From: Thermodesulfobacteriota bacterium
GTDB lineage: Bacteria > Desulfobacterota > Desulfobacteria > Desulfobacterales > C00003060
NCBI GenBank assembly: GCA_034189385.1
Contig: JAXHVD010000005.1
Span: 129,906 to 193,905, forward strand
Direction of reading: 5' to 3'
Length of the DNA stretch: 64,000 bases
The notes under the pieces were generated by a model. It did not search any database, was not told the DNA's origin, and saw only the letters and a program-made list of their open reading frames with translations. Position numbers and translations under genes: made by a program. Shown here one piece after another: positions 9,676-60,036 of the stretch; positions within the stretch are counted from its first letter, which is position 1, and each line of letters starts with the position of its first letter.

Positions 9676-9842
9676 CCTCTCCTTTTCCCTAACGGCAGGT
9701 GTGTCGAGACTTGCCCCCGGATTCGGCAACAGAGGGATGGTGAAAGGTATTGGAGGCCAAAGAGAAGCGAATTTTCCCATCCCGAGGCTTCCATCGCATA
9801 GAAAAGACACAAACCAGCCCACTGCGGTTTTCTAGAAACCTC
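9676..9842 (+). repeat. Internally deleted, inverted copy of the ~0.4 kb structured element (compare 49004-49389 and 55920-56366)
   Basis: GGCAACAGAGGGATGG is joined almost directly to AGGTATTGGAGGCCAAAGAGAAGCGAATTTTCCCATCCCGAGG; these match the two ends of the reverse complement of the long copies. Confidence 0.8.
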
Positions 9843-9876
9843 TGTTTACTTTTTGTTTTTATTTCGTGCCAGAAAA

Positions 9877-19334: not shown

Positions 19335-19449
19335 ATGGCTGGACAGAATCTGTGGTTTGAAGCCTCTCAGAAGACATATAGGAGTGGTATTAGGGTGAAG
19401 GAAGCGCGTTTCATGGAAAAGAGGCACGAAGAAGAAAGGGTGAGGCCGC

Positions 19450-27385: not shown

Positions 27386-27407
27386 AATGTGGAAAAGTAA
27401 AGGATGT
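27386..27407 (+). repeat. Breakpoint-associated motif, copy 3 (core)
   Basis: AATGTGGAAAAGTAAAGGATGT, identical to the core of copy 1. Confidence 0.8.
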
Positions 27408-27409
27408 GC

Positions 27410-29141: not shown

Positions 29142-29574
29142 TGCACCTCTTTCCATGGCATTGTTCCCATGGTGAAGGGTTGACGTATTTGGCCAAGATA
29201 AAAGCAGAAGCGTTGCAGTGTTTGAGGGTTGAAGGAAAGGGAGATGAATCGGGTAAGTTGAGAGCGATGCTGTATGCCCTGGTTGCCCGGATTCCAGTGG
29301 GTTGGAAGCGATATTGATGGAGAAGAGGAAGCGCTCATTACCTTGAAAATTCGGTTGACAGAACCGAGATTTCAAGGTGGCTTTTTGTCCTGATAGGGCC
29401 CACCGCGAAAGCCGCGGGAGAGCTTTGGGTACAATGGTGAAAGGTTGACGTATTTAGCTTGGAGAGAAGTAGGGGGCTCTATCATGATTGCCCCCGCGTG
29501 GGGTGACGTTTGCGGCTGGACAAAGCGACAAGGGCGGCAAATCAGTGACCCGCTCTCAACGGGCAACTCATACT

Positions 29575-36904: not shown

Positions 36905-39900
36905 CTACCGCCGTCTGGGCTCTGGTTCCGGCTCGCCCAGGAGGTAATAGACCGGCGGCATACCGCTTGGAAGCGTCGTAAAGGTTAAGACGTTTCCGTA
37001 AGCCGTGCCTGCATCATTGGTGGCGTAGGCCCTGACAGCATAGTTGGTGTTGGGGTCAAGACCGCTCATGTTGCTCGTAAAGGCAAAAGGAAGTGTCACG
37101 GCCCCCACGGCCCCTTCATCGGTGCTGTTGTCGACCAATGTAGGGTCACTCCCTCCGGCAAGATTCCAGACCACGCCGTGGGCTGTGGGCTTGGGTTCCC
37201 CAAGGTCTGTGATGGTGCCGTTAACCGTAGCTGAATGGCTTGTTTCGCCCTTCACCGACACTGTGGTGACGTCGGGCAAATCGGCGCCTGTGCCCTGAAT
37301 GGCAAAGTCATAGGGGTCCTCATCAGTGTCATCATTGGCAATGCTCACGGTTGCCGTTCGCAGCCCTAGTGCGCTGGGGTCAAACTGGACTATAAAGGTC
37401 GTGGTTCCTCCACCGGCTCCGACAGGCGTTGTGGGAACCGCGGTCACAGTGAAGTCCCGCGAGTTTGCGCCGCCTACCACCACCAAGGGCGCACCGGTGA
37501 GGGCCAGGTCCGCCGCCCCGGTGTTTTCGATGGTAAAGGTGTGGTCAACCGTGCCCGTTGCAGTGTCGGCTGATCCAAAATCCGTATCGTCCGTGTCAGA
37601 AGGCGTGGTATCCCCGTCAGCAATGGAAGTGCCCTTTCCTTGGACGTCCACCTCAGAGACGCCGCCTGTGCCCTGAATGGCAAAGTCATAGGGGTCCTCA
37701 TCAGTGTCATCATTGGCAATGCTAAGGGTTGCCGTTCGCAGGCCCAGTGCGCTGGGGTCAAATTGGACCGTAAAGGTCGTGGTTCCTCCACCGGCCGCAA
37801 CGGGCGTCGTGGGAGCCACGGTCACGGTAAAGTCGCCCGAATTTGTACCCCCCACCGCCACCAAGGGTGTGCCATCCAGAGACAAGGCCGCAGATCCAGA
37901 GTTTTCGATGGTAAAGGTGTGCTCCAACGTGCCACCGTTGATATGGACCGTGCCAAAATCCGTGTCGTCCGTGTCAGAAGGCGTGGTAAGCCCGTCCACA
38001 ATAGAAGTGCCGTTTCCCTGAACATCTATCTCGGAGACGTCGCCTGTACCCTGTATGGTAAAGTCATAGGGGTTTTCGTCAGCGTCATCATTGGCAATGC
38101 TCACCGTGGCCGTGCGGAGCCCCAGTGCACTGGGGTCAAAGGTAATGGTGAAGGTGGTGGTACCTCCTCCAGAGGCCACGGGCGTGGTGGCATCTGTGGT
38201 CAGTGTGAAATCAGCCCCATGGGTGCCGCCTATCGTCACCCGCGGCGAACCTCCCGTGAGGTTTAGATCGACTGTGCCGGAATTTTCGATGGTAAAGGTG
38301 TGCTCCAAGGCGCCGCCGTTCAGATTAACCGTGCCAAAATCCGTCTCGTCGGCCGTAGCAGGCGTTGTATCCCCGTCAGCAATGGAGACGGCCAGACCGG
38401 ATACGTCCATCTCAGGCGCAGTGCCTGTGCCCTGGATCGAGAAGTTGTAGGGATTTTCGTCCCCATCGTCGTTTGCGATGCTGACGGTGGCCGTACGTAG
38501 GCCGGGAGCACTGGGGTCAAAGGTGATGGTGAAGGTGGTGGTGCCTCCTCCGGAGGCTACGGGCGTAGTGGCATCGGTCGTGAGCGTGAAGTCAGCCCCA
38601 TGGGTGCCGCTGATGGTCACCCGCGGGGGCCCTCCCGTGAGATTTAAATCGGCGGTGCCGGAATTGGTGATGGTGAAGGTGTTCTCGTTCGTTCCTGCCG
38701 CTACCAGGACATTTCCGAAGTCCGTATCATCCGTATCAGAAGGCGTGGCATCCCCGTCAACAATGGAGACGCCCAGGCCGGAGACGTCCAAGTCAGGGGC
38801 AGTGCCCGTTCCCTGTATGGAGAAGTTATAGGGATCTTCATCCAAGTCATTATTGTCGATGCTGACGGTAGCCGTACGCAGACCGGGAGCGCTGGGGTCA
38901 AAGGTGATGGTGAAGGTGGTGGTGCCTCCTCCGGAGGCCACGGGCGTAGTGGTATGGGTGGTGAGCTCGAAGTCGGCGGCATGGGTGCCGTTGATGGTCA
39001 CTCGGGGGTCCCCCGTGAGGTTCAAATCGGCGGTGCCGGAATTGGTGATGGTAAAGGTGTTTGGGTTGGTTCCGCTGGCTACCAGGACATTTCCGAAATC
39101 CGTGTCATCCGTGGCAACAGGTGTCGCATCCCCGTCAGCAATAGAGACGCCCAGGCCGGAGACGTCCATCTCAGGGGCAGTGCCCGTTCCCTGTATGGAA
39201 AAATTGTAGGGATCTTCATCGGAATCATTATTGGCGATGCTGACCGTTGCCGCACGCAGGCCTGCGTCGCTGGGGTCGAAGGTGATGGTAAACGTGGTCG
39301 TGTCGCCGCCGGAGGTTACGGGACTTGTGGGGTCAAAGGTTACGGTAAAGTCAGCGGCATGGGTGCCGCTGATGGCCACCAGCGGCGCGCCTGTGAGGTT
39401 CAAATCGGCCGATCCCGGATTCCGGATCGTAAAGGTGTGGGCCACGGTGTCGCCGGCCACGTTGAGACTACCGAAATCGGTACCATCTGTCGTTGAAGGC
39501 GTCCCATCTCCGTCGGCAATGGATTGACCGTTTCCCTGCACATCGATTTCCGGCGCGACAACGCCCGTCCCCTGGATGCTGAAACTAAAAGGGTCCTCGT
39601 CTATGTCGTCATTGTCTATGCTCAGTGATGCACTCCTCAGTCCACTGCCACTGGCGTTAAAGGTGACCTGAAAGGTTGCGCTTCCGCCGGCCGACACAGA
39701 AGAAGACGGTTGCGCCGTTACCGTAAAGTCCGCGGCATGGGTGCCGCTTACCTGGACGATGGGTGTTCCTGTCAAATTCAAGTCAATGGCCCCCAGATTA
39801 TTGATCGTAAAGGTGCGAACAACGGTGCCGCCGGCCACATCCGTGCCCCCGAAGTCGGTGTGATCTGCTGCGGAAGGGGTATCATCATTGTCGGCAATGG

Positions 39901-42381
39901 AGGTACCGTTTCCCTGAACCTCTATCTCCGGGTCCAGGTTGTACGCGAAATCGTCCATGAGGAAGTTTCCGTTTGCGTCACTGATGATTTCAAGTTTTTC
40001 TAAATTATTCATGTCTGTATACGCCTTCTTCTGGTAGCTTGTCGAAATCGAAAACGAATGGGATACCGTTCCTGCACCACTCACATAGCCTGTGAGCGTG
40101 ATGCTGCTCGCTGCGTTCCAGCAATATTGCTTGAATCTGGCCTCGGCAAAGTTGAATGTGCCTGATAGGGGAGTCACCGTGATCGTTGTGGGATCTCCCG
40201 ATGCTATGCGAACTTGATTAGGACTGGAGGCGGCGAACCTATTGCATTCCCAACCACTCATCTGGGCATTGCTGACGACGCCGGCGCCCCCTTCCCACGT
40301 AAATCCTTTATACCCGGGCGAAGAAGCGGGTAGGGCGCCGGGCGTAAAATCATCGAAATCGATGATCGTATTCGGCGTGCCCGTTCCGTTAAGGGTCAGA
40401 TCATAGGGGGTCTCGTCACTATCGTTGTTGGCAATGGCGATGGAGGCAGTCTTGGCCCCTGAGGAGGTGGGTGAGAAGCGGATCGTAAAGGTCGTGCTGC
40501 CTGAAAGGGCCACGGGCGAAGTAGGCTGGGCCTGAACACTGAACTGGCTGGCGTCTGTCCCGACAATGTCAATGATGGGCGTTCCCGACAAAGTGAGGTC
40601 GGCAGTCCCCGGATTCTCGATGGTAAAGATAACGTCAATATCCGTGTTATTGGTCCTTATGCCGAAGTCATAGCTTCCGCCATCAGCGATGTTGGTGGCC
40701 CCCTGCTTCAGGTTGATCTCAGGTACGGGCAGCACGCCGGTCCCGTTGAGGGTCAGATTATAGGGATTCTCATTACCGTCATTGTTGGCCATGGCGATCG
40801 TGGCGGTTTTGGCCCCCACCGAGTCGGGTGAGAAGCGGATGGTAAAGGTTGTGTTTCCCGAAGGGGCCACAGGCGATGTGGGCTGGCCATCAACACTGAA
40901 CTGGTCGGCGTCTGCCCCGCCTATGGTAATGATGGGCGAGCCGGACAGGGTCAGGTCCTCCGTTCCCAAATTTTCAATGGTAAAGACAGCATCGGTGTCG
41001 CTACCCGTGGGCTGACTGCTAAAGTTGTAACTGCCGCCATCAGCGATGTTGGTAGTCCCCTCCTTGAGGTTGATTTCAGGCCCCCACCTGTGCCGTTGAG
41101 GGTCAGGTTATATGGGTTCTCATCGCTGTCATTGTTGGCCATGGCGATCGTGGCGGTTTTGGCCCCCACCGAGTCGGGTGAGAAGCGGATGGTAAAGGTC
41201 GTGTCTCCCGAAGGGGCCACCGGCGATGTGGGCTGGATCTCAACACTGAACTGGTCGGCGTCTGTCCCGGTAATGGTAATAATGGGCGAGCCGGACAAAG
41301 TGAGGTCGGCGGCCCCTGTGTTCTCGATGGTGAAGACAACATCCGTATAGGTGCCAAGGGCATGGCTGCCAAAGTCGTGGCTACCGCCATCAGGGATATT
41401 CGTTGCCCCCTGCTTCAGGTTGATCTCCGCTTCAGCGGTTCCTGTACCCTGTATGGCGAAATCATAGGGATCTTCGTCTGCATCGTTATTGGCAATGCTC
41501 AGTGTGGCACTCCTTAGTCCGGCAGCACTGGGGTCAAAGGTCACCTGGAAGGTTCTGCTTCCGCCAGCCGGGACAGGGGTAGACGGGAAAGCAGTCACGG
41601 TGAAATCCGATGTGTGGCTGCCGCCGACGGCCACCATGGGAGAGCCGGTGAGATTCAGGGCGCTCGTTCCCAGATTCTTGATCGTGAAGGTACGGACGAC
41701 CTGCCCACCTCCTACATCGGCACTTCCGAAATCAGTATGGTCGCCTGTGGAAGGCGTATTGTCACCGTCGGCAATGGTAGAGCCGTTTCCCTCAACGGCT
41801 ATTTCCGGGCCCTCAATCAGAGTGAAATCATCCATGAGCCACGATCCTTTGCCGTTGCCGTCGCCGTTGTCTCCCCTTATCACGATTGACGTCAGGTTTG
41901 TCATGTTGGAGCACACTTTCGTCCCGTAACCGCTCCCCAACGGTATGGTGAATGAGTCCGTAACGGTGCCTCCGCCACTCAAATTTCCGGTAAAGGTGAC
42001 TTTGGTCGCTGTGAACCAACAATATCTGGCAAACTTGGCCCCGCCAAAGTTAAATGTGCCGCCCGAGGCAGGGGTCACCGTGATGGCTTTGGGTTCCTCT
42101 CCTGCTACACGGACCTGATACTCACCGGATGGTGAATTCCTTGAGCAGCTATAAGCCGCGAGCTGCGCATCGCTGATGACCCCTGGGGTGTCAGAGCCAT
42201 ATTCCCATAGGAAACCGCCATACCCAGGGGGCGAATCAGGAAGGGACGCCTGAGAATTGGTCGTATAATCATCAAAATTGATCACGACCTCTTCTCCATA
42301 GGCTGCAACGGCCATGAAAAGGACGAAAATGAGAGCAGAGACTATCCCGGTCAGTTTTCCTTTCACCGATACTTCCAACAT
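36905..42381 (-). pseudogene. Large secreted/surface protein with ~11 choice-of-anchor-D Ig-like repeats; single -1 frameshift at 41081-41085
   Basis: Signal peptide from 42381; repeats PEI.V.G...I.DG..TP...D.TDFG...FTI.N.G...L.L...I.N.D.DE.PY.F.I.GTG; the two track ORFs join if the G5 run were G6; C-terminal FN3-like domain and MPPVYYLL tail. Confidence 0.85.
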
Positions 42382-49003: not shown

Positions 49004-49389
49004 GGGATAGCGCAATTCGCTTCTCTAAAGCCTCCAATGCCTCAGTAACGTTTAGAGGTTGTGACAGTCTATTTCTGAATAGACAATTTCCGGATAGGGC
49101 GAATCGCTTCTCTTCGGTATCCAATGCCTTTGAGTAGCCCACATTAGCGGTGTAGATGGAAATGGCTGTATACCTACGTTCAGCGATCCTCCCTATCCTT
49201 TTAACTGCCCGCGAAGAAGGTTTGCCTCAACTTCTGAACGCTACCAATGGCTTTGGTAGCCGTAGGAAGCTGGTAGGAGGCAATGGCTGTAGGCCCCTGT
49301 TCAGAGATGTTCAGCGAATCTCCCCATCCCTCTGTTGCCAAGTCCGGGGGGTATAAGTCTTGACAGACCTACTATTAGTAGAAACGAGG
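49004..49389. repeat. Structured non-coding element, copy 1
   Basis: Near-identical core to 55981-56364; nested stems GGATAGGG/CCCTATCC (49092-49198) inside an outer GGGAT/ATCCC stem. Confidence 0.9.
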
Positions 49390-49419
49390 CTTGTGTAACG
49401 TGAGTTACCAAATGAAGGT

Positions 49420-50259
49420 TCAGAGGATCTTCATGTTCATGTCCAGCCAGGTAGCATGGTGAATGATGGCGCCCGATGAGATGTAATCTACGCCTGTTTG
49501 GGCCACGGCGAGAATATTTTCTGGGGTCATGTTGCCCGAGGCCTCTGTGAGGGCCTTCCCTTTTGCCTGATCCACGGCCTGTCGCAAGGTGGAAAGGTCC
49601 ATGTTGTCAAGGAGGACCAGGTGTGCGCCGGCGTCCAGGGCCTCTTTCAGCTCTCCAAGATCCTTTACCTCCACCTCTATCCGGGCAGTGAAGGGGATCG
49701 CTTTCCTGACGGCTGACACAGCATCTTTAATCGACCCTGCCACCTTGATATGATTGTCCTTGACCATGGCACAATCGTAGAGACCCATTCTATGATTGCA
49801 GGCCCCTCCCATGGTCACGGCATACTTTTCTAGGAGACGCAAGCCCGGTGTGGTCTTTCTGGTGTCTACGAGGCGCGTGCCAGTGGACGCAATGAGATCC
49901 ACCATTTTTCTGGTCGTTGTGGCAATCCCTGAAAGTCTTTGGAGGATATTGAGCGCTGTTCTCTCTGCCCGCAGCAGTGCGAAGGCCGGGCCCGTTACCG
50001 TGGCGAGCTCAGTCCCCTTTGCTATGGCAGCCCCGTCCTGTGCTAGGGGTTCTGTCTTTGCCCTAGGGTCCAAGAGGGAAAATGTCTCTGCTGCCACCGG
50101 CATTCCAGCCAAGACCCCTTCCTCTTTGGCCCTGATGACGGCGGTGGCCGTCTTTTCCCTTCCCGGCACATGGCAGCTCGTAATATCTCCGTGGCCCAGG
50201 TCTTCCAGCAGATAGGCCTTCAGGAGGTCCTTCAGCACAAAAGGGTCGAGTTCTTTCAC
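49420..50259 (-). CDS. nadC: Quinolinate phosphoribosyltransferase
   Basis: EDLGHGDIT, ERTALN..QRLSGIAT, DTRKTTPG, HRMGLYD...KDNH, EVEV, LLDNM and EASG. Confidence 0.96.
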   Translation of the reverse strand: MKELDPFVLKDLLKAYLLEDLGHGDITSCHVPGREKTATAVIRAKEEGVLAGMPVAAETFSLLDPRAKTEPLAQDGAAIAKGTELATVTGPAFALLRAERTALNILQRLSGIATTTRKMVDLIASTGTRLVDTRKTTPGLRLLEKYAVTMGGACNHRMGLYDCAMVKDNHIKVAGSIKDAVSAVRKAIPFTARIEVEVKDLGELKEALDAGAHLVLLDNMDLSTLRQAVDQAKGKALTEASGNMTPENILAVAQTGVDYISSGAIIHHATWLDMNMKIL

Positions 50260-51164
50260 AATTCCAGCATCCTCCTGATTGCCTGTTCCGCCTTGGCCCG
50301 GACGGTTTCTTCCACATCCACCACGTAAATACCTTCTTCAAGCGCCTTGTGGACCCTGTCCAGGGTGATCATCTTCATCTGATCGCAATAGGGGACAGGG
50401 TCTGGAAGGAGGAACTCCTTGTCCGGGGCGGTTTTCTTCATCTGATGCAAGATGCCCTCTTCTGTTCCAACGATAAAAGACATTGCATCGGATTTTTCTA
50501 CAAACCGGAGGAGCTGGGACGTGGAGCCCACGAAGTCCGCCTTTTCCGTCACCTCCGGGGGACACTCTGGGTGCACAATAACCAGGGCATGGGGGTGCTG
50601 TGCCTTCACCCTTTCAATGGATTGCGGCGTAATCCCCTGGTGAATGGGGCAGTACCCATTCCAGAGGGTAACGCCTTTGCCTTTCATCGTCCGGACATGA
50701 AAGGCTCCCAAGTTGCGGTCAGGAAGAAAGATGATCTTCTCGCCTTCCATCTTCTCCATGACCTTTCGGGCATTTGCCGAGGTGCATATAATGTCTGCCA
50801 AGGCCTTTATCTCAGCATAGACGTTGACATAGGCTACCACCTTGGCGTCGGGATTGGCCTTTTTGGCTTCTTCTACCTGCCGGGGGTCTGCCATGTCCGC
50901 CAAAAGACACCCTGCAAGGGGATAGGGGGTCAAGACGGTTTTGTCTGGAGAGAGGATCTTGGCCGTCTCTGCCATGAACCTGACGCCACAAAAGAGAATC
51001 GTCCCTTGGGGGGCCGACGCTGCTGCACGGCTGAGTTCCAAGGAGTCTCCCACAAAGTCGGCAATGTCCTGGATCTCTGGCCGTTGATAGTAATGGGCAA
51101 GGATGACCACATCCTTTTCTTCTTTTTGCCGCCTGATTTCCTCCTGAAGCTCTTGGACTTCCAT
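50256..51164 (-). CDS. nadA: Quinolinate synthase
   Basis: ILAHYYQ, GDSLEL, FCGVRFMAETAKIL, AGCLLAD, CTSAN, PDRNLG, CPIH, HPEC and GST. Confidence 0.96.
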   Translation of the reverse strand: MEVQELQEEIRRQKEEKDVVILAHYYQRPEIQDIADFVGDSLELSRAAASAPQGTILFCGVRFMAETAKILSPDKTVLTPYPLAGCLLADMADPRQVEEAKKANPDAKVVAYVNVYAEIKALADIICTSANARKVMEKMEGEKIIFLPDRNLGAFHVRTMKGKGVTLWNGYCPIHQGITPQSIERVKAQHPHALVIVHPECPPEVTEKADFVGSTSQLLRFVEKSDAMSFIVGTEEGILHQMKKTAPDKEFLLPDPVPYCDQMKMITLDRVHKALEEGIYVVDVEETVRAKAEQAIRRMLEL

Positions 51165-51467
51165 GTCTGTGTTTCCTTGTTGGTTCTTTCCAAAAGATAC
51201 GAAAAGGCCTGAAGCGCTGTGCCATGGTCTCGTCACGTCACCTGCTCTACTCATGGATCTGCGTGGCTTGGCCACACTGAAAAACAATACTTCACAGAGA
51301 AGTGCAATTCAAGAGGCAAGGAGTCTTTTTAGGGAAGTCTAGGCAAGAAAATTGACAATGCCCCTCCATGGGCCTAGCATGACCGAGGCCACTAGGTTTA
51401 GGCTTGGTCCCTTATCTACTGAGGCAGGAGTAGATGCACGTTGCCTGTGGCAACGCCAGGAGGAAAC

Positions 51468-52109
51468 ATGAGAATTACACTGATCTATGACAACGATGTT
51501 TTCAAAGAGGGTCTTGTGGCTGACTGGGGATTTTCCTGTTTGGTAGAAATAGAAAAGGCCCCTAAGATTCTTTTTGATACGGGAGGAGATGGTTCCATAC
51601 TCCTTTCCAACATGGAAAAACTAGACATCGATCCGGCCTCTATCGATGTTGTCATGATTTCTCATCCTCACCACGATCATGTGGGCGGGCTCTGGGCTTT
51701 CTGTCGTGTGAACAGGGATGCCAAAGTCTATGTTCCTCCTTCACTAAGGGGCCTTGACGGTATAGACCAGGTCATCCCTGTAACTGGACCTTCACAGATC
51801 CTTGAGGGGGTCTTTTCCACTGGCGAACTGGCTGGCATCGAACAATCCATGGCCGTAAAGACGGACAAGGGGGTTGTCTTGATTGTGGGATGCTCCCATC
51901 CAGGGATGGCCAGCATTTTGAAGGCAGCTTCTGCCTTTGGAAAGGTCTATGCCGTGGTGGGCGGGCTCCACGGATTCAGGGAGTACTGGTTGTTTGAAGG
52001 CTTAGAGCTCATCTGTCCTACCCATTGTACACAGCACAAAAGCGAGATAAAGGCCCTGTACCCTGAACAATACGTTGATGGGGGTGTGGGGCAGGTGATC
52101 GTGTTGTGA
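51468..52109 (+). CDS. MBL-fold metallo-hydrolase
   Basis: WGFSCL, LFDTG, SHPHHDHVGG, GCSHPG, GGLH and PTHCT. Confidence 0.9.
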   Translation: MRITLIYDNDVFKEGLVADWGFSCLVEIEKAPKILFDTGGDGSILLSNMEKLDIDPASIDVVMISHPHHDHVGGLWAFCRVNRDAKVYVPPSLRGLDGIDQVIPVTGPSQILEGVFSTGELAGIEQSMAVKTDKGVVLIVGCSHPGMASILKAASAFGKVYAVVGGLHGFREYWLFEGLELICPTHCTQHKSEIKALYPEQYVDGGVGQVIVL

Positions 52110-52133
52110 AGAGAAAGGGGAACTGACTGCCTG

Positions 52134-53756
52134 TCAGGGGGTGTAGAGCACCACCACGCAACGGGTCGGTTCGTCAGAGAGACTTCTGAGCTTGTGGGGC
52201 GTCTCGGAATGAAAGTGGATGGACTCGCCCGGCTTGAGGTGGTGGCTCTTGCTGCCCAGGGTAAGTCCAAGATCTCCCTCCATGACGAGGATAAACTCTT
52301 CGCCCTCGTGTTTGTAAGCCACGGGTTTGTGGGCCTGTCTGGACTCGATAGTGATCATGAAGGCCCGGAGGTGCTCGTTTTCAGCCCCAGGGGTGAGGGT
52401 CTGGTAAGAGTAATTCTGGGTCCGTTTGATAAAGGCCTGTGCCCGTTCGTCACGGATCATGGCCTTTTCTTCGTCCCGAAGGAAGGTGCTGGGGTCCACT
52501 TTCAGGGCGCGGGCCAAGGTGAGCAGGAAACTTACTGACGGCGTAAGCTCGTCCTTTTCGATCTGCTCAACAAACTCCGGCGACTGGCCCGTGGCCTTGG
52601 CCAAAGCCTCGCGGGACCAGTTCTGGCCTTCCCGGAGCCTGACCACTTTCGCTCCAAAGCTGGTTCCCCTGTCCGTTGCCTTGTCTTGCGTTAAAAGATC
52701 GGCAAGCCGGCGCATCACCACCTGTTTGACCTTGGCCGTAAGGGCAGGGACAAAGGTCTTTGCGTCCGTTACAACGCCCAGGTCCGCCACCTGAAAGATG
52801 GGTGCCTTTGGGTCCCGGTTGACGGCAACGATGGTCTCTGCCTCCATAATACCTGCTGTGTACTGGACGGCCCCGGAAGTGCCGATGGAAAAGAGCAGTC
52901 TTGGGCTTACGGTTTTTCCGGTCTGTCCGATGAGCCGCTCTTCGTCTATCCAGTGCTGGAGCACAGGGGGCCTGGTGGCGGCCACTTCGCCGCCAAGGGC
53001 GGCAGCCAGTTCCCGCACCAGGGAAAAGCCTTCTGCATTGCCAAGGCCTGCTCCCCCAACCACGACGGTGTGGGCCTCTTCAAGCCGCCGGTGCTCTTCA
53101 GGTTGGGCCGAGGTCGCCAGAAGCTTGAGTCCCGTTCGTTCTCTGGGGGACGCGATTGGGATATGCTCGATAGTACCTGGATCACCTGGGATCTGAACCG
53201 CCTGAAAAGGGTAGGGCTGCACCGTGGCGAACCCGGTACGCTCAGCGTCGGCGAAGCCGATCTCGGCCATGATCTCACCGCCCCAGGAGGGACAGGTGGC
53301 CACCATCTTGTTCTCGTCGATTCGAAGATCCACGCCATCGGCGACCAAGCCTCCATCGCATATTCTCGCGGTCCGGGCGGCGAGTTCCCTGCCGAAATCG
53401 GTCAGGGTAAAGAGGAGATACATGGGGCCGCGGGCTTGAACGGCTTCGGCTAAGACAGGTGCGTAGGTGTCAGCCCTGATGGACGCCAGCCCTGGATCGT
53501 TGAGAAGATAGACCAGGTCCGCGCCGTGGTCGATGCATTTTTTTGCCGCAACGTCTAGAGACACACATGCACGAATGCCGGGGGCACCTTCCGGTCCATC
53601 CTGGGTAGATGAACCCACAAGCACGGCCGCTGCCTTCCCAGAGACCGTGGTGGCCAGGTCACGAGCCTTGCCCAGGACCTTGATGGAGAAATCGTAAAAC
53701 CGCTCGTTCCTTAGGTCCACATATACCCAGATTTCGGTTTCTTTTCTGTCTGCCAT
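52134..53756 (-). CDS. etfA: Electron transfer flavoprotein alpha subunit fused to XRE HTH + cupin
   Basis: GRELAAR, VVVGGAG, IGQTGKTV, GTSGAVQY and VNRDPKAPIF, then in frame FGAKVVRLRE...LAKATG...IEKDELTPS and HEGEEFILV.EG..L...LKPGESIHFHSETPH. Confidence 0.88.
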   Translation of the reverse strand: MADRKETEIWVYVDLRNERFYDFSIKVLGKARDLATTVSGKAAAVLVGSSTQDGPEGAPGIRACVSLDVAAKKCIDHGADLVYLLNDPGLASIRADTYAPVLAEAVQARGPMYLLFTLTDFGRELAARTARICDGGLVADGVDLRIDENKMVATCPSWGGEIMAEIGFADAERTGFATVQPYPFQAVQIPGDPGTIEHIPIASPRERTGLKLLATSAQPEEHRRLEEAHTVVVGGAGLGNAEGFSLVRELAAALGGEVAATRPPVLQHWIDEERLIGQTGKTVSPRLLFSIGTSGAVQYTAGIMEAETIVAVNRDPKAPIFQVADLGVVTDAKTFVPALTAKVKQVVMRRLADLLTQDKATDRGTSFGAKVVRLREGQNWSREALAKATGQSPEFVEQIEKDELTPSVSFLLTLARALKVDPSTFLRDEEKAMIRDERAQAFIKRTQNYSYQTLTPGAENEHLRAFMITIESRQAHKPVAYKHEGEEFILVMEGDLGLTLGSKSHHLKPGESIHFHSETPHKLRSLSDEPTRCVVVLYTP

Positions 53757-53794
53757 ACCTAAAGTCCGAAGAGCCTTTGGTCCTTCTCCCTTCC

Positions 53795-54571
53795 CTATCC
53801 CATGGCCCCTGACGTTGCCAGTCGCTTCACGAGCTCTTCTGCCTGCTCGCCGGCCGTGCCTGTCAGGAATTCGCATTTCCTCTCCCGCATGGCCTTGGCC
53901 CAGGAGACGACCCTGGTTGGTGATCCGGCCCATCCAACCTGGTCAGGGGTGAGGGCCAGGTCTGTAAGGTGCCACTTTTCAATCTTGCCCTCCGAAAAAG
54001 CCTGCTCAATCCCTGCCAGTCCCACATGCCGGGGCTGTACGGAAGCCGGATGGATAGTCAACGCCGCAGGGAAAGAAACCTCGAATGTCTCCAAAAATCC
54101 GTCGGCCCTGCGCTCCACGTAAAGACCGACGTCTCTTTCCTCCATGGAATGGACCCAGGTCACAAGGGGGATATCAAGGGCCACAGCGGTTTGCGGGCCA
54201 ACCTGGCCGGTGTCGCTGTCAGCGGTCCTGGTACCGAAAAGGACCAAGTCATAGGGCGCAAGCTTTTTGATGGCTGCCGCCAATGCCGTGGAAGTGGCCA
54301 GCGTGTCCGACCCTGCCATGGCCGGGTCGGAAATCAAAACCCCCCGGTCAATGCCCATGGCCATGGCCTCGTGAAGAGAAGAGGCGCAGGCGTCAGGCCC
54401 CATGGATAGGGCAGTGACTGTTCCGCCCCGCGCGTCTTTCATCTGTAGCGCCACCTCCAGGGCCGGTCTGTCAAAGGGGTTCAGCTCAAGGGCATCAGGT
54501 GAACGGATGAGCCCCTTTTTCGGGGACTTGAGCATGACCGCTTTGATGCATACGATGATGTGAAACGCCAT
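53795..54571 (-). CDS. etfB: Electron transfer flavoprotein beta subunit
   Basis: IIVCIK, NPFDRPALE, LSMGP, GSDTLAT, DSDTGQVGP and GSPTRV. Confidence 0.93.
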   Translation of the reverse strand: MAFHIIVCIKAVMLKSPKKGLIRSPDALELNPFDRPALEVALQMKDARGGTVTALSMGPDACASSLHEAMAMGIDRGVLISDPAMAGSDTLATSTALAAAIKKLAPYDLVLFGTRTADSDTGQVGPQTAVALDIPLVTWVHSMEERDVGLYVERRADGFLETFEVSFPAALTIHPASVQPRHVGLAGIEQAFSEGKIEKWHLTDLALTPDQVGWAGSPTRVVSWAKAMRERKCEFLTGTAGEQAEELVKRLATSGAMG

Positions 54572-54582
54572 CTCTCCTTCTC

Positions 54583-55722
54583 CTATCCCAATACTCCCCT
54601 GGCAATGACCATACGGTGGATCTCAGAGGTGCCCTCGTAGATCCTTGTTACCCTGGCGTCGCGGTAGTAGCGTTCCACGGGATAGGATTTCGAGTAGCCA
54701 TAACCACCGTGGATCTGCACTGCCATATCGGTGACCTTGCTCGAAGTCTCTGAGGCGTAAAGCTTTGCCATGGCCGCGGCCTGCGAGAAGGGCTTCCCCT
54801 GGTCGCGGAGGACTGCTGCCCGATAGACCAGGAGCCGGGCGGCGTCTACCTGCGTGGCCATGTTTGCAATCATCATCTGAACGGCCTGGTGCTTGGCAAT
54901 GGGCACACCAAACTGGTGTCGCTCTTTCGCGTACCGAACCCCCTCATCAAGGGCAGCCTGAGCAATGCCCACAGCCTGGGCCGCAACTCCTATCCTGCCC
55001 GTATCCAGGGCTGCAAGGCCGATGCGCAGGCCCATGCCTTCCTTGCCCAGGCGATTGGCCACAGGTACCCGGCAGTCATAGAGCCGAATGGAGCTGACGG
55101 GATTGGCCCGCATGCCGCAGAGGTCCTCCAGATCCCCGACTACAAAGCCGGCGGTGCCGCGCTCGGCAATAATGACGCTGATCCCCTTGCGACCGGCATT
55201 GGGGTCAGTTCTGGCGAAGATCAGGCAGACGTCAGCAACGCCACCATTGGTGACCAAGACCTTGTTGGCGTTCACCACATAATCGTCTTTGTCACGAAGG
55301 GCCAGGGCTTGGATGCCGGAGGCGTCAGATCCGGCATTGGGTTCGGTGAGGCAGAAGGCCCCAATCTTCTCCCCTTTGGCAAGAGGGGGAACCAACCTCT
55401 GTTTCTGTTCTTCTGAGCCAAAGGCCATGAGGGGATAGACGGCCACGCTATTATGGACCGTTGCGCAGAGTCCGAGGCTGCCGGACGCCCTTGAGATCTC
55501 CTCGATCACGATGATATAGCTCACCGTGTCCATGCCGGCGCCCCCCAACTCCTTGGGGACCTGGATACCGAAGTAACCCAGACCGGCCATCTTCTCCACT
55601 ACCTCCCAGGGAAAGCGGGCTTCCTGGTCGATCTCTTTGGCGATGGGGAAAAGCTCCCGCTCACAAAAGGTCCGGACCGAGCGCCGCACGGCTCTGTGTT
55701 TTTCCGATAAGAAGGTTTCCAT
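54583..55722 (-). CDS. Short-chain acyl-CoA dehydrogenase
   Basis: [42 protein letters not shown] and [15 protein letters not shown]. Confidence 0.95.
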
Positions 55723-55919
55723 AGAGAGTCTTTACGCTATCAGAAGTGTCTGTGGACCTATCAGAATTTGAAGGGAAAAGCAAAGTGAGATAGCGCGAAG
55801 GTGGCATTCCAGGAGAATGGCATTGTAAACGTGGAGCGTAAGTCGTCCGGTTTGCGCCCAATGAAAGAACAGAGGCCCTCTGCCTTGTCAACTATTTGAA
55901 CTAACGAATAAAAATTCGC

Positions 55920-56366
55920 CGAAGCTTCCAGGAAACGGCAGGGCGCTGGTTTGGGCCTCTTTGATGCAAGGGGAACCTCGGGATGGGGAAATCCGCTTCT
56001 CTTTGGCCTACAATGCCTCAGTAACGTTTAGGAGTTGTGACAGTCTATTTCTGAATAGACAATTTCCGGATAGGGCGAATCGCTTCTCTTCGGTATCCAA
56101 TGCCTTTAAGTAGCCCACATTAGCGGTGTAGATGGAAATGGCTGTATACCTACGTTCAGCGATCCTCCCTATCCTTTTAACTGCCCGCTAAGGAGGTTTG
56201 CCTCAACTTCTGAACGCTACCAATGGCTTTGGTAGCCGTAGGAAGCTGGTAGGAGGCAATGGCCGTAGGCCATTTTAAGAGATCTTCAGCGAATCTCCCC
56301 ATCCATCTGTTGCCAAATTCGGGGGATACAGGTTTTGACACACCCATGATTAGTGGAAACGAGGGG
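55920..56366. repeat. Structured non-coding element, copy 2 (longest)
   Basis: Outer stem GGATGGGGA (55981)/TCCCCATCC (56304); inner unit 56068-56174; left extension shared with 9780-9842. Confidence 0.9.
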
Positions 56367-56437
56367 TGCGCCTCTTTTGAAGCCGCCGGGCGCAAACTTG
56401 AGAGAAGAAGCTTCAGGAAGGGCCACTTTTTGATTTG

Positions 56438-58306
56438 TCAACCTTCCCAGAGGGCGTCACGGAGTCCAGAGGTGCGCTCAATGCGTCGGGAGACGGCCGT
56501 GCGAAAGACAGCCTCCGTGGCCCATATCTCCACGGCCTCTTTGGCGCGGGTAATGCCTGTATAAAGGAGTTCTCGTGTCAGCACTGGGGCGTCCCTGTCC
56601 GGCAAAAGAAGCAGGAGCTTGTCAAATTCCGATCCCTGACTCTTATGAACGGTCATGGCGTATACGGTCTCGTGCTCAGGCAGTCTGATGGGATGGATCT
56701 TTCTTAGAGTGCCACCCGGTGCCGGGAAAAAAACACGCAGGTCATTGTCCGCTACGGGGTCTGGCAGAGCCAGACCCACATCCCCATTAAACAATGAAAG
56801 CGTGTAGTCATTACTCGTAATCAGGACCGGACGACCAGCATACCACTGACCGGCAGGGTCAATGAGTCCTTCGTCTTTGAGGATTCTTTCGGCCAGCACA
56901 TTCAGAGCCACTACGCCATAGGGGCCTTTTCTAAGGGCGCACAGGATTCGGAACCGATCAAAGCGGTGAAAAACCTCTTCCACGTCTTTGGCCTTCAGGT
57001 AATCTCTATATCCGTTTATGACGGCATCCCTGATGGCTGCAGGCAGGACATGGGGCTGGGGAAGGTGCTTCCACCTTACGTCCTGATATTGGCCGGCTAT
57101 GACAGGGTCTGCCGCGAGGTTCCCATCGCCGGCATTGACTGCAGTGCTCACCCCATGGATACCGCTATGGCTGCCAAAACGGAAACTCCTGTGAAGCTGG
57201 ACAATGCAGTCAGAGATACCTGGTTTGTCCTTTTCCGTTCTCTCTGTGCCCATGTCATACCCGGTGACCTCTTTAAGATAGCCTTTAAATGGCGTTGAAA
57301 AGGTGTGGCCGCCACCTGTGTCGCATATGTCGCCAAGAACGGCCCCCGCTTCTACTGAGGCGAGCTGGTCCTTATCTCCCAACAGGACCAGTCGGGCTTG
57401 GGGAGGAAGGGCCTGGACAAGCTTGGACATGAGGGCCAGGTCCACCATGGACGCTTCATCTACCACAACGAGATCAAGGGGCAACAGATTGTCTGCGTGA
57501 TGACGAAAATAGGGGGAGCCTGGAATCGATCCCAGGAGCCGGTGAATGGTGGACGCCTTTTCGGGGATCTGTTCCTTGATCTTGTCGTGACAGTGAAGCT
57601 CCTCTGTGGCACCCACCACTGCTTCCTGTAGTCTGGCAGCAGCCTTTCCCGTAGGAGCCACAAGGGCTATCCGAACCCTTTTTGGGTTGGGTTGTTCCAA
57701 GACCAACGCCAGGATCTTTGCGACGGTGGTCGTTTTCCCTGTTCCAGGGCCGCCGGAGATAACGCTGAACTTGTTGACTAGGGAGGTAAAGGCAGCGATC
57801 TTCTGCCAGTCCATGGGCTGGGTTCGGCCAGGGGGAGAGGAGGTTGAAGCGTTACCAAAGAGCCTTCCCAGACCCTCTTTCAGACGTGCCGTGTCTATGT
57901 CTCCTTCATGTTCACGAACGCGGCCTAAGATCAGGCAGGCAAGTTTTTCTTCATAATCCCAGTAACGGTGAAGGTACAGCCTGGCACTGTCATCGAGGAT
58001 CAGAGGTTTGAATTCTCCAGGGGTGCCCACGACGATTGTCCCTCTCAGTTTCTCTATCCAGTGACGCAGCGTGGGACAGGCGATGGGGTCTTTTCCGTCT
58101 TCTTTTTCCAGCAGTGCATTCCCAGCCAGGCTGGCCAGGTTCAGGCAGATATGCCCCTGCCTGGTGTGGCTGCTTGCCAGGGCCGCTGCCAGGCGGAGCT
58201 CGGGCGCTTGAGTGCCGGCAAGCCTTGCCATAAACCTGGCAAAATGGACGTCAAGCTGAGAGAGTATGCCGCCTTCGCAGAGGCGACTGAGAAGTTTTCC
58301 TTCCAT
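56438..58306 (-). CDS. recD: Exodeoxyribonuclease V alpha subunit (RecD helicase)
   Basis: GHICL, LYLHRYW.YE, DWQKIA, GGPGTGKTTT, APTGKAAARL, VDEASMVD, GDKDQLASVE, TVHKSQGSEF and LYTGITRA. Confidence 0.94.
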   Translation of the reverse strand: MEGKLLSRLCEGGILSQLDVHFARFMARLAGTQAPELRLAAALASSHTRQGHICLNLASLAGNALLEKEDGKDPIACPTLRHWIEKLRGTIVVGTPGEFKPLILDDSARLYLHRYWDYEEKLACLILGRVREHEGDIDTARLKEGLGRLFGNASTSSPPGRTQPMDWQKIAAFTSLVNKFSVISGGPGTGKTTTVAKILALVLEQPNPKRVRIALVAPTGKAAARLQEAVVGATEELHCHDKIKEQIPEKASTIHRLLGSIPGSPYFRHHADNLLPLDLVVVDEASMVDLALMSKLVQALPPQARLVLLGDKDQLASVEAGAVLGDICDTGGGHTFSTPFKGYLKEVTGYDMGTERTEKDKPGISDCIVQLHRSFRFGSHSGIHGVSTAVNAGDGNLAADPVIAGQYQDVRWKHLPQPHVLPAAIRDAVINGYRDYLKAKDVEEVFHRFDRFRILCALRKGPYGVVALNVLAERILKDEGLIDPAGQWYAGRPVLITSNDYTLSLFNGDVGLALPDPVADNDLRVFFPAPGGTLRKIHPIRLPEHETVYAMTVHKSQGSEFDKLLLLLPDRDAPVLTRELLYTGITRAKEAVEIWATEAVFRTAVSRRIERTSGLRDALWEG

Positions 58307-58859: not shown

Positions 58860-59178
58860 ATTCTAGACAAGCGTGCTCCAGTGCCAATAAGTCTCTATAA
58901 TTCATAGACAATATCACGGCCAGGAACCCCTGTTCCAAAGTTGCAAATCCGCCATTTTTGTATGATTGTTGTTTTCAGGCCAACATTTGAGTAGGGGTGT
59001 TGGTGCTAGGACAAAAGGCTGTTCTGAGGGACGTACGGGGGCTTCTAGGCAGGAGGATGGGTGTGGATAAAGTCTCTGACCTGTTTGCCACAGTGAGTGG
59101 GCAGATACCCCCTCATAAGGCCCTGCACCGTGAGGGGTGAGGTATAGGGCAGATAGCCGTATCTGCTTTTCTGCCCTA

Positions 59179-60036
59179 CTATTTGTCAAATGCACCGGGT
59201 GCACGGGGCTTAGGAGGCGGCCACATGGGAGGACCATCCTTTTCTGGTGGGCCATGCATTCCTGGTGGGCCGTGCATTCCTGGTGGGCCATGCATTCCTG
59301 GTGGGCCATGCATTCCTGGTGGGCCGTGCATTCCTGGTGGGCCGTGCCTCATCGGAGGGCGATGTTGGGCGTTGAATTCGCGGTAAGCGGCCATTTGATC
59401 AGGAGTCAAAATGGTGCTGAGCTGTTCTTCAACCGACTGCTGGTGTGCGTCCACTTCTTCCATGAACGAGTGGAAACTCTGTTGAAGATCCTCACGATGT
59501 TGCTCCAGCATGTTGTGCCGCTCGTCAAAGCTACTCTCTATAATAGGACGAGCCTCTTTTTGCTGCTCTGCCGTCAGATTCAGGCGCCTGCTCATATCCG
59601 AAAAAACCTCTTCACGACGCTCTTTCTTGAACATGCCACGGGGTCCAGGCAGCATTCGCCCGTGGTCTTTGAAGGTTTTATAGAATTCGTCCAACCTCTG
59701 TCTCTGGGTGCTGTCCAGTTCTTCTTTTATCTGGGTGATGGCATTGTCAAGAAGCGTTTCGAACTCAGAATGATGTTCTTGCAAGAATTGCCTAAACCGT
59801 AATTCTGATTGGTTCAGTATGGTTTCAATCTCCTCCCGCTGAGATTCCGAGAGGTCAAGTTCGGGCAGGAAATCTTTCAGGACGATTGTCAACGGCGGTT
59901 TCATTCCTCGCACAAAGCTGGCGATCCTTCCCTCAACATAAAGCCTTGTTGCCAGCGCGCCTGCAAGGGCTCCCAGGGCAAGAAGAATCAGTATGGCCAC
60001 ACCTAATTTTAGTCTATTCATTCCTGTTTTCATCAC
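59179..60036 (-). CDS. Membrane-anchored Spy/CpxP-like (LTXXQ) protein with a His/Pro repeat tail
   Basis: TM anchor; [15 protein letters not shown] and ILTPDQ; (GMHGPP)x5. Confidence 0.75.
59245..59347. repeat. Coding 18 bp tandem repeat TGGTGGGCCRTGCATTCC, 5 full copies plus a partial one
   Basis: Read directly; encodes GMHGPP on the minus strand. Confidence 0.95.

What the first reader, a model, noticed from the sequence alone, without database searches (positions are those of the whole stretch)
55920..56366. Unassigned ~0.4 kb nested structured element, present three times in the window
Seen in sequence: near-identical copies at 49004-49389 and 55920-56366, plus an inverted copy at 9676-9842 that keeps both ends but lacks the ~280 nt interior. 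The element contains the same bipartite motif twice, one inside the other. The outer unit is GGATGGGGA.ATCCGCTTCTCT..GGCCTACAATGCCT ... AGGCAATGGCCGTAGGCC...TTCAGCGAATCTCCCCATCC. The inner unit (56068-56174) is GGATAGGGCGAATCGCTTCTCT..GGTATCCAATGCCT ... AATGGCTGTATACC...TTCAGCGATCCTCCCTATCC. The stems differ between units but still pair (GGCCTAC/GTAGGCC vs GGTAT/ATACC; GGATGGGG/CCCCATCC vs GGATAGGG/CCCTATCC), while the unpaired segments are kept. There are extra hairpins (GTCTATT/AATAGAC, GCTACCAA/TTGGTAGC) and a possible pseudoknot (loop TTAGCGG with CCGCTAA in copy 2). No credible ORF or terminal inverted repeat is visible, and copy 1 lies between convergent genes, so it is not simply a 5' leader. 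Inference: a large structured ncRNA with two equivalent internal-loop modules, or the RNA/end module of a non-autonomous mobile element. I cannot match it to an RNA family I know.
Basis: partly seen in the sequence, partly recalled or inferred. Interest (0 to 1): 0.85.

Follow-up and report, generated by a model that had tools for sequence, protein, structure and literature searches.

The report
One small transposon nested inside another
The "nested structured element" is a small non-coding transposon (a MITE) that landed inside the hairpin of a second, related MITE; both belong to abundant repeat families of this sediment bacterium, so it is mobile-DNA debris, not shown to be an RNA gene.

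Summary
The inner ~202 nt (56020-56221) is a MITE, "B". It has 17-nt terminal inverted repeats and 8-bp target duplications, and 31 copies with both ends lie in this genome. The outer part is a ~292-nt MITE, "A", with 16-nt inverted ends and 6-7-bp duplications. B inserted at AATGCCTT, at the edge of the apical loop of A's hairpin.

Both families carry a homologous ~105-nt hairpin, about 63 full copies in 4.1 Mb. That is why the motif appears twice. Its pairing holds while its sequence changes, but a 7x7 internal loop, a 4-nt bulge and an A.A mismatch stay fixed.

Rfam gives nothing. The copies show no orientation bias, no promoter-like site and no strand-specific wobble signal. The element occurs only in a few Desulfobacterales MAGs and in metagenome contigs. 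No matching transposase gene was found.

Verdict: new, undescribed MITE families of a known kind. The window copies have lost A's left end, so they are probably immobile. Open points: why the asymmetric hairpin is conserved, why its P2 stem has about three times fewer private mutations, and why the two window copies are mosaic.

The parts
55883..56011 (+). Copy 2, outer MITE 'A': left arm remnant plus the 5' strand of its hairpin (P1 from 55981, loop TCTCTTT, P2a). The left TIR is missing; homology starts at A position 15.
   Evidence: blastn of intact A copies against the window; alignment of A copies
56012..56019 (+). Left copy of the 8-bp target-site duplication made by B (AATGCCTC). The A consensus at this place is AATGCCTT.
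56020..56221 (+). Copy 2, inner MITE 'B' (202 nt). TIR-L 56021-56037, TIR-R 56204-56220, hairpin core 56068-56174.
   Evidence: own-genome blast, alignment with flanks, TIR scan, core profile, loose contig ends at 56020
56222..56229 (+). Right copy of B's 8-bp target-site duplication (AATGGCTT)
56230..56402 (+). Copy 2, outer MITE 'A', right part: rest of the apical loop, the 3' strand of the hairpin (56255-56304), the right arm, and the right TIR ending CAAACTTGAG at 56402. The TIR carries a ~23-nt hairpin insertion also seen in other A copies.
   Evidence: 9 contigs in X1 diverge right after 56402
49004..49043 (+). Copy 1, outer MITE 'A' truncated on the left (starts at A position 113): the 5' strand of the hairpin plus the left duplication (49036-49043)
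49044..49245 (+). Copy 1, inner MITE 'B'. TIRs at 49045-49061 and 49228-49244. 97.6% identical to the B of copy 2.
49246..49404 (+). Copy 1: right duplication and the right part of A, with a degenerate right TIR
9698..9865 (-). Copy 3: decayed A-family copy without B. A positions 42-153 are joined to 207-257, so the 3' half of the hairpin is deleted and both TIRs are gone. It lies between a MazE-like gene and a PIN-domain gene.

Best explanation
The finding is a composite of two miniature inverted-repeat transposable elements (MITEs).

The two elements. A B-type MITE of ~202 nt has ends (G)GTAACGTTCARAAGTTG...CAACTTYTGAACGTTAC(C). It inserted into the 8-mer AATGCCTT, at the edge of the apical loop of the central hairpin of an A-type MITE, and duplicated that 8-mer. 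The A-type MITE is ~292 nt with ends CTCAAGTTTCGCACCC...GGGTGCGAAACTTGAG.

Why the motif appears twice. Both families carry a homologous ~105-nt imperfect hairpin. This hairpin is the conserved palindromic body of the B-type lineage. In the smallest relatives (~137 nt) the terminal repeats sit directly beside its basal stem, so the whole element is one hairpin. A-type elements are probably small two-TIR shells that took up a B-like element.

How it works. Shown: the elements make 8-bp (B) or 6-7-bp (A) target duplications and lie dispersed in either orientation. Inferred: they moved as DNA by cut-and-paste or copy-and-paste, using a DDE-type transposase supplied in trans; that enzyme was not found. 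Inferred with about 40% confidence: the hairpin body acts in cis in transposition. It would hold subterminal transposase-binding sequences that differ between the two ends, and its palindromy would bring the ends of a very short element together.

State of the window copies. Both composites have lost A's left TIR, so they are probably immobile. They share one insertion event, because both carry the same mutated duplication pair. They have since exchanged a 252-nt central tract, probably by gene conversion.
For: Two families.
- The query region matches 50 places in the own genome. Most matches cover only query positions ~101-305, the inner unit.
- The outer halves match another set of places where left and right halves are adjacent.

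TIRs and duplications.
- B: 31 elements with both TIRs. Their 8-bp flanks are identical in 14 of 31 and match at 7 or more of 8 in 23 of 31. In a shifted control the best is 5 of 8.
- A: 14 TIR pairs in fetched loci. The 7-bp flanks are identical in 5 of 14 and match at 6 or more of 7 in 8 of 14. Several of the rest fit a 6-bp duplication (own-genome examples).
- The window insertion fits B's AAnnnnTT-like target.

Copy number and spread.
- A hairpin profile finds 99 hits in the own genome, 63 of them near full length.
- In an order-level search 4 of 151 genomes have it, the own genome included.
- The genome-contig scan gave 21 loci. Nineteen are Desulfobacterales or Deltaproteobacteria MAGs and 2 are weak chance-like hits.
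- It is multi-copy in five further genomes, with 17, 29, 2, 26 and 9 matches.
- Of 77 full hairpins in 80 metagenome loci, all but 10 have an A or B TIR beside them. Most of those 10 are diverged A copies or mini-B elements by eye.

Unit borders. Public contigs diverge at 56020 and at 56402.

No sign of an RNA gene.
- Rfam gives 0 hits at gathering score and only one E = 6.1 snoRNA match.
- There are 0 promoter-like sites.
- Flanking-gene context relative to the element is ++ 18, -- 24, divergent 13, convergent 11.
- Private stem mismatches are G.T 8 against A.C 8.
- The arms between TIR and hairpin are not conserved between species.

A as shell plus B-like relic.
- A 52-bp element made of two A TIRs only, with a flanking duplication, exists in a sister species.
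- A's 5' arm aligns to the left end of B at 31 of 39 positions. The score has z 3.9-5.5 in 5 of 32 arm comparisons.
- B-like GTAACG...ACGTTAC ends lie inside the A copies of a third genome, read by eye.

Single origin of the window pair. Both have the identical diverged duplication pair.
Against: - No autonomous element with these TIRs was found. None of 7 DDE_Tnp_1 genes in the own genome has them. The IS66 ends in these genomes read GTAAGCGTC.... Solo TIRs in the sister species lie beside housekeeping genes.
- No clean empty site was recovered.
- A pure DNA-end model does not need the basal stem P1 to stay complementary while its sequence changes between lineages, yet it does: 12 of 18 P1 pairs changed on both sides.
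- Element-level selection alone predicts neutral decay of each copy. Private mutations are in fact rarer in the hairpin than in the arms and apical loop: A 37 in 82 sites against 141 in 178, B 31 in 79 against 56 in 85. In the P2 stem they are 14 in 60 sites, and the TIRs decay faster than P2.
- The shell-plus-relic origin of A rests on weak similarity. The 3' arms show none, with z at most 1.6.
Confidence: 0.75

Rival explanations
1. The hairpin is a functional structured RNA, either a multi-copy small RNA or a protein-binding RNA module. It rides on MITEs, or MITEs arose from it. The conserved 7x7 loop, the CUGU bulge and the A.A mismatch would be a protein- or RNA-recognition surface.
For: - Pairing is kept through changes on both sides in 15 of 31 pairs, while the loop, bulge and mismatch are nearly invariant.
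- There are about three times fewer private mutations in P2 than in the arms, and fewer than in the TIRs.
- Both families' fixed stem mismatches are A.C, which would be G.U on the minus strand. Minus-strand folds score somewhat better, with z -4.6, -5.4 and -7.1 against -2.9, -3.1 and -6.7.
- A tandem array of three hairpin-bearing units exists at C9:31580-32280.
Against: - In the copies examined with flanks, TIRs lie beside the hairpin, and most intact pairs carry duplications.
- There is no orientation bias relative to genes, no promoter-like site and no Rfam match.
- Private and event-level wobble counts are symmetric: 8 against 8, and 25 against 27.
- The host range is narrow.
Confidence: 0.12
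2. The hairpin is a single-stranded-DNA or cruciform site for a site-specific recombinase or HUH-type enzyme, in the manner of integron attC sites or REP elements. The apical loop would be the place where DNA is exchanged or inserted.
For: - The architecture is a paired base, an unpaired central part, a stem with extra-helical bases and a variable top.
- The apical loop holds B in the window copies and a third MITE in 4 other A copies.
- The near-identical tract shared by the two window copies (5 differences in 252 nt) ends inside P2 on both sides.
Against: - The insertions in the loop have their own TIRs, and B's insertion carries its own duplication, so ordinary transposition explains them.
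- B also sits in A at another place, in stem P1, in C1 and C17.
- The four loop insertions of the third MITE may descend from one event.
- No integrase or HUH gene lies beside the window copies.
- Tract ends in the most conserved stretch are what ordinary gene conversion would give.
Confidence: 0.06
3. It is the guide or bridge RNA module of an RNA-guided mobile element (IS110/IS1111 bridge RNA, or the IS200/IS605 TnpB or IscB omega RNA) that survives as a non-autonomous remnant.
For: It is a hairpin with internal loops, non-coding and repeated.
Against: - The elements have TIRs and 6-8-bp duplications. As I recall, those families do not make these.
- The loop sequences are conserved rather than varying with the target.
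- The neighbours of the three window copies are nadC, an acyl-CoA dehydrogenase, recD, a glycine-zipper protein, and MazE-like and PIN genes.
- Rfam, which holds IS605-orfB and HEARO RNAs as I recall, gives no hit.
Confidence: 0.02

Closest known systems
Bacterial MITEs in general (recalled examples: Correia elements of Neisseria, ERIC/IRU of enterobacteria, Nezha of cyanobacteria, Chunjie of Geobacter)
   Same: Small (about 137-292 nt), non-coding, with terminal inverted repeats and target-site duplications. There are tens of copies per genome, mostly between genes and in either orientation. The whole element or its centre folds as a long hairpin, and elements are found nested in each other.
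   Different: No sequence relation to those families was tested, because no reference sequences were at hand. Two families here have unrelated ends and different duplication lengths yet share one homologous hairpin body. The hairpin's asymmetries are conserved across families and species. The parent insertion sequence is unknown.
IS110/IS1111 bridge RNA
   Same: Non-coding, hairpin-rich, with internal loops. When two units are nested they look like two equivalent loops in one fold.
   Different: Each unit is a separate transposon with its own TIRs and duplication. The loops are conserved rather than programmable, no recombinase gene is adjacent, and there are dozens of dispersed copies.
Integron attC sites / REP-BIME elements (single-strand-folded DNA sites)
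   Same: Imperfect palindromes in which structure is kept more than sequence, with conserved unpaired bases and a variable top. REP elements are also multi-copy and intergenic.
   Different: The copies are dispersed singly with TIRs and duplications rather than in cassette arrays. No integrase or RAYT gene was seen beside the window copies. At ~105 nt, with an 18-bp basal stem, the hairpin is larger than a REP.

Membership tests
MITE (miniature inverted-repeat transposable element) | Short, with no coding capacity | tested here: met
   B is ~202 nt, A ~292 nt and mini-B ~137 nt. Copies differ by 1-2-nt and longer indels, so no reading frame is kept. The ORFs listed over the element are mechanical; conservation of frames was not tested formally.
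MITE (miniature inverted-repeat transposable element) | Terminal inverted repeats | tested here: met
   B has a 17-nt TIR found as pairs in 31 elements. A has a 16-nt TIR, with 16 exact copies in sister genome G050.
MITE (miniature inverted-repeat transposable element) | Target-site duplication of fixed length | tested here: met
   B: 8 bp, 14 of 31 perfect and 23 of 31 at 7 or more of 8, with a control maximum of 5 of 8. A: 7 bp, 5 of 14 perfect and 8 of 14 at 6 or more of 7, and some copies fit 6 bp.
MITE (miniature inverted-repeat transposable element) | Many dispersed copies in different genomic contexts | tested here: met
   99 profile hits on many contigs, flanks unrelated between copies, contigs diverging at the unit borders.
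MITE (miniature inverted-repeat transposable element) | A cognate autonomous insertion sequence with the same ends | tested here: inconclusive
   Not found in the own genome or in G050, G119 and G138, nor beside the hairpins in 80 metagenome loci. The genomes are draft MAGs, where multi-copy insertion sequences often fail to assemble.
Any Rfam RNA family | Match to a covariance model at its gathering score | tested here: not met
   0 matches over the whole window. At E up to 10 on 55800-56500 there is only SNORA55, at 13 bits against a cut-off of 45.
IS110/IS1111 bridge RNA | Lies at the end of an element that encodes the DEDD recombinase, and that element has no TIRs or duplications (as I recall) | tested here: not met
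   The neighbouring genes are unrelated. TIRs and duplications are present. A genome-wide search for the recombinase family was not run.
IS200/IS605 PATE or TnpB omega-RNA module | Subterminal hairpins, no TIRs, no duplication, insertion next to a fixed short motif (as I recall) | tested here: not met
   TIRs and 6-8-bp duplications are present. No TnpA or TnpB gene lies beside the window copies.
Integron attC site | Sits at cassette boundaries in an array next to an integrase gene, with R''/R' core sites (motif recalled) | tested here: not met
   The copies are single, dispersed and flanked by TIRs. There is no integrase beside the window copies. The core-site motif was looked for by eye only.

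The most novel reading that the evidence does not exclude
The ~105-nt hairpin is more than leftover transposon ends. On this reading it is a functional single-stranded module, RNA or extruded DNA, recognised by a dedicated and still unknown protein. It would be kept in place in individual copies and would be the real unit of selection shared by MITE families with unrelated ends.

This would explain four things:
- Stem P1 stays complementary while its sequence turns over.
- The pseudo-symmetric 7x7 loop, the CTGT bulge and the A.A mismatch are nearly invariant.
- Stem P2 carries about a third of the private mutations seen in the arms, and fewer than the TIRs.
- The near-identical tract shared by the two window copies ends within P2 on both sides.
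Probability: 0.15. Interest if true: 0.65.

Novelty: new member of a known kind. Interest (0 to 1): 0.3.

Why it matters
- It is a warning for RNA discovery. Nested MITEs of related families imitate a large nested RNA with compensatory stem changes, because both halves of a palindromic transposon change together for reasons that need no RNA.
- It annotates roughly a hundred unlabelled loci in this genome, and more in related sediment Desulfobacterales.
- These repeats mark places of genome change. The two window copies sit exactly at the ends of a 6.3-kb block that is syntenic with a sister genome, and one decayed copy separates the two genes of a toxin-antitoxin pair.
- The conserved asymmetric hairpin, shared by families with different ends, is a small open question about what makes a MITE mobilisable.

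Tried and rejected
- Rfam, whole window at gathering score and the element at E up to 10: nothing usable.
- Expression: no RNA holder was listed for window 55500-56700, so nothing can be said about transcripts.
- Empty site. The contigs laid gave only one imprecise joint (55806 to 56446, one contig, letters between not known), which is not a clean excision. The sister genomes share the block 49424-55707, but their flanks differ and hold no element, so no orthologous empty site was found.
- Autonomous partner. Solo TIR hits in the own genome and in G050 lie beside ordinary genes. Seven DDE_Tnp_1 genes have other ends. There are only weak IS1 hits in G050. IS66 elements end in GTAAGCGTC..., so my recalled link between a GTAA start with an 8-bp duplication and IS66 is not supported for these copies. 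No solo TIRs were found away from hairpins in the metagenome loci.
- Other collections: viral contigs 0 hits and plasmids 0 hits.
- Literature. Two full-text searches found nothing on these elements: 'miniature inverted-repeat transposable' with 'Desulfobacterales' gave 0 papers. 'MITE', 'sulfate-reducing', 'inverted repeat' and 'hairpin' gave 2 papers, judged unrelated from the listing only.
- Earlier notes of this scan: nothing for this sequence.
- Strand from wobble pairs. The raw cell counts favour A.C (155 against 50), but the excess is inherited or fixed. Independent events are 27 against 25 and private changes 8 against 8, so this was rejected as evidence.
- Conserved words as a genome-wide signal. 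CCAATGCC occurs 382 times outside the hairpins against a mean of 118 (maximum 284) for permuted words. The other words lie within the range of the controls. Not pursued.
- A peptide in the hairpin. The ATG in A's stem is absent from B, and B has a stop in that frame. Rejected by eye.
- Consensus-to-consensus comparison of the A and B arms was abandoned. The comparison was done on natural copies instead.

Full report
**Observation.** A repeat search of the window finds the two direct copies: 49004-49295 against 55980-56271 at 95%, and 49295-49389 against 56270-56364 at 83%. It also finds the partial inverted copy, with arms 9745-9865 against 55898-56018 at 75% and 9714-9743 against 49321-49350 at 90%. 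Rfam gives no match at gathering score over the whole window. Over 55800-56500, at E up to 10, it gives only a 13-bit SNORA55 match at E = 6.1.

**Two families, not one element.**
- Searching the window's own genome (4.13 Mb, 64 contigs, 90% complete) with 55920-56366 gives 50 matches. Most cover only query positions ~101-305, the interior.
- Local BLAST with the interior and with the two outer parts shows two separate repeat families.
- Family B is the inner unit. Twenty-six full-length copies aligned with their flanks show sharp borders, ends (G)GTAACGTTCARAAGTTG...CAACTTYTGAACGTTAC(C), and unrelated flanks.
- Family A is the outer unit. Its length is about 292 nt.

**Target-site duplications.**
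- B: 31 elements in the own genome have both TIRs. The 8 bp outside them are identical in 14 of 31 and match at 7 or more of 8 in 23 of 31. With the right flank taken 20 nt further out, the best match is 5 of 8.
- The duplicated 8-mers tend to read AAnnnnTT.
- A: among 14 TIR pairs in loci from sister genomes and metagenomes, the 7-bp flanks are identical in 5 and match at 6 or more of 7 in 8. Several others fit a 6-bp duplication shifted by one base. Own-genome examples are TTACTGA, TTACGGA and ATTCTGA.
- Both families are therefore MITEs in the ordinary sense.

**Anatomy of the window copies.**
- In copy 2, B occupies 56020-56221 and is flanked by AATGCCTC (56012-56019) and AATGGCTT (56222-56229).
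- Intact A copies read AATGCCTT at this place, where stem P2b meets the apical loop.
- A's right end is at 56402. Its left TIR is missing, with homology starting at A position 15, window 55883.
- Copy 1 has the same insertion with the same two diverged duplication copies, so the two share one insertion event. Its A part starts only at A position 113 (49004), and its right TIR is degenerate.
- Copy 3, on the minus strand, is an A copy without B. A positions 42-153 are joined to 207-257.
- Contigs of four public metagenome runs pile up on the repeat: summed depth reaches 8930 against 36-120 in the flanks in X1. They diverge at 56020 (8 contigs in X1) and after 56402 (9, 5, 3 and 7 contigs in X1-X4). 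These are the borders of the units.

**The shared hairpin.**
- A and B carry a homologous core of about 105 nt. A profile built from both families finds 99 places in the own genome at E up to 1e-3, 63 of them near full length.
- On 34 sequences from A, B, a tandem variant and seven other genomes, I tested the structure below.
  - P1: 18 pairs.
  - A 7x7 internal loop: TCTCTTC against TTCGTTC or TACGTTC.
  - P2a: 5 pairs.
  - A CTGT bulge.
  - P2b: 8 pairs, with an invariant A.A.
  - A variable apical loop.
- 85.5% of cells are paired, against 33-49% for slid partners. Fifteen of 31 pairs changed on both sides, 12 of them in P1.
- Both strands fold into this hairpin as RNA, with z from -2.9 to -7.1.
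- The arms between TIR and hairpin are not conserved in structure. The proposed pseudoknot is perfectly complementary in 1 of 26 copies (by eye).

**Distribution.**
- An exact-pattern scan of one genome per species gave 21 loci. Nineteen score well against the profile, and all 19 are Desulfobacterales or 'Deltaproteobacteria' MAGs, one of them a complete 2.38-Mb chromosome. Two weak hits, an Armatimonas and a Clostridia MAG, look like chance.
- A covariance model found the hairpin in 4 of 151 genomes sampled from the order: the own genome, both other members of the genus, and one other family.
- In five further genomes reached through loci it is also multi-copy, with 17, 29, 2, 26 and 9 matches.
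In the 80 loci fetched there were 77 full hairpins, and 67 of them have an A or B TIR within 200 nt.
- Of the other 10, most are A copies with diverged ends. L111, L156 and L179 are 'mini-B' elements. In L111, GTAACCGTTCATG and its inverted partner lie directly beside P1, and a 7-nt near-duplication flanks the ~137-nt unit. The whole unit folds as one hairpin with z about -7.
- Viral contigs and plasmids gave nothing.

**Relation of A to B.**
- In a sister species (G050) the A TIRs are exact in 16 places. The hairpin inside has a different P1, GGTGCGGGAAGGAA paired with TTCCTTCCCGCACC, and a changed P2b. The loops are similar, and the arms are unrelated to those of this genome.
- The same species holds a 52-bp element made only of the two A TIRs with a flanking duplication.
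- In this genome A's 5' arm aligns to the left end of B2 at 31 of 39 positions. The score has z 3.9-5.5 in 5 of 32 arm comparisons. The 3' arms show nothing, with z at most 1.6.
- In the complete chromosome (G151) the A copies hold GTAACGCAAAAAAGTG near the left and ACGTTAC near the right of their interior, read by eye.
- I read A as a small two-TIR shell that took up a B-like element, perhaps more than once. This is suggestive, not shown.

**Other nestings.**
- A third MITE without the hairpin (ends ~TCGCAAAAAGTC, 190-230 nt) lies in the apical loop of four A copies.
- B2 lies in stem P1 of A in two further copies that share a diverged duplication.
- An A variant has its interior triplicated in tandem, with a 225-nt period.

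**Is there an RNA?**
- No RNA run holds the region, so expression is unknown.
- Indirect tests do not point to an RNA gene. There are 0 promoter-like sites in 55700-56600.
- With crude gene calls, 66 hairpins lie in contexts ++ 18, -- 24, divergent 13 and convergent 11 relative to their own strand. Fifteen overlap a called ORF by more than 60 nt.
- Stem mismatches that would be wobble pairs on one strand only are balanced once inheritance is removed: 27 against 25 events, and 8 against 8 private changes. The two fixed mismatches are both A.C.

**What the simple model does not explain.**
- Private (single-copy) substitutions are rarer in the hairpin than in the arms and apical loop: A 37 in 82 sites against 141 in 178, and B 31 in 79 against 56 in 85.
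- They are rarest in P2, at 14 in 60 sites over both families. The TIRs carry 0.41-0.94 per site. Misalignment around indels may inflate the counts in the arms.
- The two window composites are mosaic. There are 5 differences in the 252 nt from 56011 to 56262, which holds P2b, B and A's apical loop. To the left there are 8 in 31, and to the right 43 in 140, a 23-nt indel included.
- I take this as gene conversion between two neighbouring, already diverged A copies, with ends in the best-conserved stretch. A site-specific exchange at P2 is not excluded.

**Context.**
- The genes between the two copies are nadC, nadA, a metallo-beta-lactamase-fold protein, etfA-like and etfB-like genes, and an acyl-CoA dehydrogenase. 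recD lies to the right, and a glycine-zipper protein to the left.
- Window 49424-55707 is collinear with one contig of sister genome G119. The homology ends at both composites, and G119 has no hairpin there.
- No transposase with matching ends was found.

**Verdict.**
- The element is a nested MITE composite from two new, undescribed families of a known kind. Two literature searches found nothing on them.
- It is not a single large RNA, and it is not a bridge-RNA or omega-RNA module.
- The conserved asymmetric hairpin is the one feature worth a further look.

Noticed in passing
window 49424-55707 (and G119:C4:2426-7736): The two composite copies sit exactly at the two ends of a 6.3-kb block (nadC to acyl-CoA dehydrogenase) that is collinear with one contig of a sister genome. 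Beyond both ends the sister genome has different DNA and no hairpin. The repeats mark synteny breakpoints.
   Followed up: partly
window 9430-10563: The decayed A copy (9698-9865) lies in a 480-nt gap between a MazE/AbrB-like antitoxin gene (9430-9657) and a PIN-domain gene (10138-10563). The two look like one toxin-antitoxin pair split by the insertion.
   Followed up: partly
window 56011-56262 versus 49035-49286: Mosaic identity between the two composites: 2% difference in the central 252 nt against about 15-30% in the flanking A parts, with tract ends inside stem P2. The C1/C17 composite pair shows a similar but weaker pattern.
   Followed up: partly
own genome C12:190940-191440, C19:12880-13400, C5:74790-75290, C23:23730-24250: A third MITE family (ends ~TCGCAAAAAGTC, 190-230 nt, no hairpin core) is inserted in the apical loop of four A copies. 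Its right end also lies beside B copies in the sister genome (flanks of L042 and L045).
   Followed up: partly
own genome C9:31580-32280 and C9:38400-38960: Tandem arrays (three and two units, 225-nt and ~214-nt periods) of the interior of an A variant, each unit with a full hairpin.
   Followed up: no
window 7619-7645 and 7949-7975: A 27-nt inverted repeat, 96% complementary (GTCATTCCGGCGAAAGCCGGAATCCAG), flanks 303 nt. Similar words occur beside MITE copies elsewhere (flank of C31:15232, flank of L128). It is probably another repeat family.
   Followed up: no
window 37281-41808: Long tandem repeats with periods of 378-381 nt and 350-357 nt (60-85% identity), likely a gene for a protein with many repeated domains.
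   Followed up: no
window 59210-59364: An 18-nt tandem repeat (GGTGGGCCATGCATTCCT-like, at least 6 units), partly overlapping an ORF at 58914-59309 on the minus strand.
   Followed up: no
window 14185-14278, 19444-19492, 27271-27409, 29169-29472: Short repeated blocks (AATGTGGAAAAGTAAAGGATGTCC and ATGGTGAAAGGTTGAC) recur 3 times each in the window. They may be a shared regulatory or repeat element.
   Followed up: no
L106 216-267 (G050:C2:93215-93266): A 52-bp element consisting only of the two 16-nt A TIRs and 20 nt between them, flanked by AACTGA on both sides. It is either a minimal shell or an internal-deletion derivative.
   Followed up: partly
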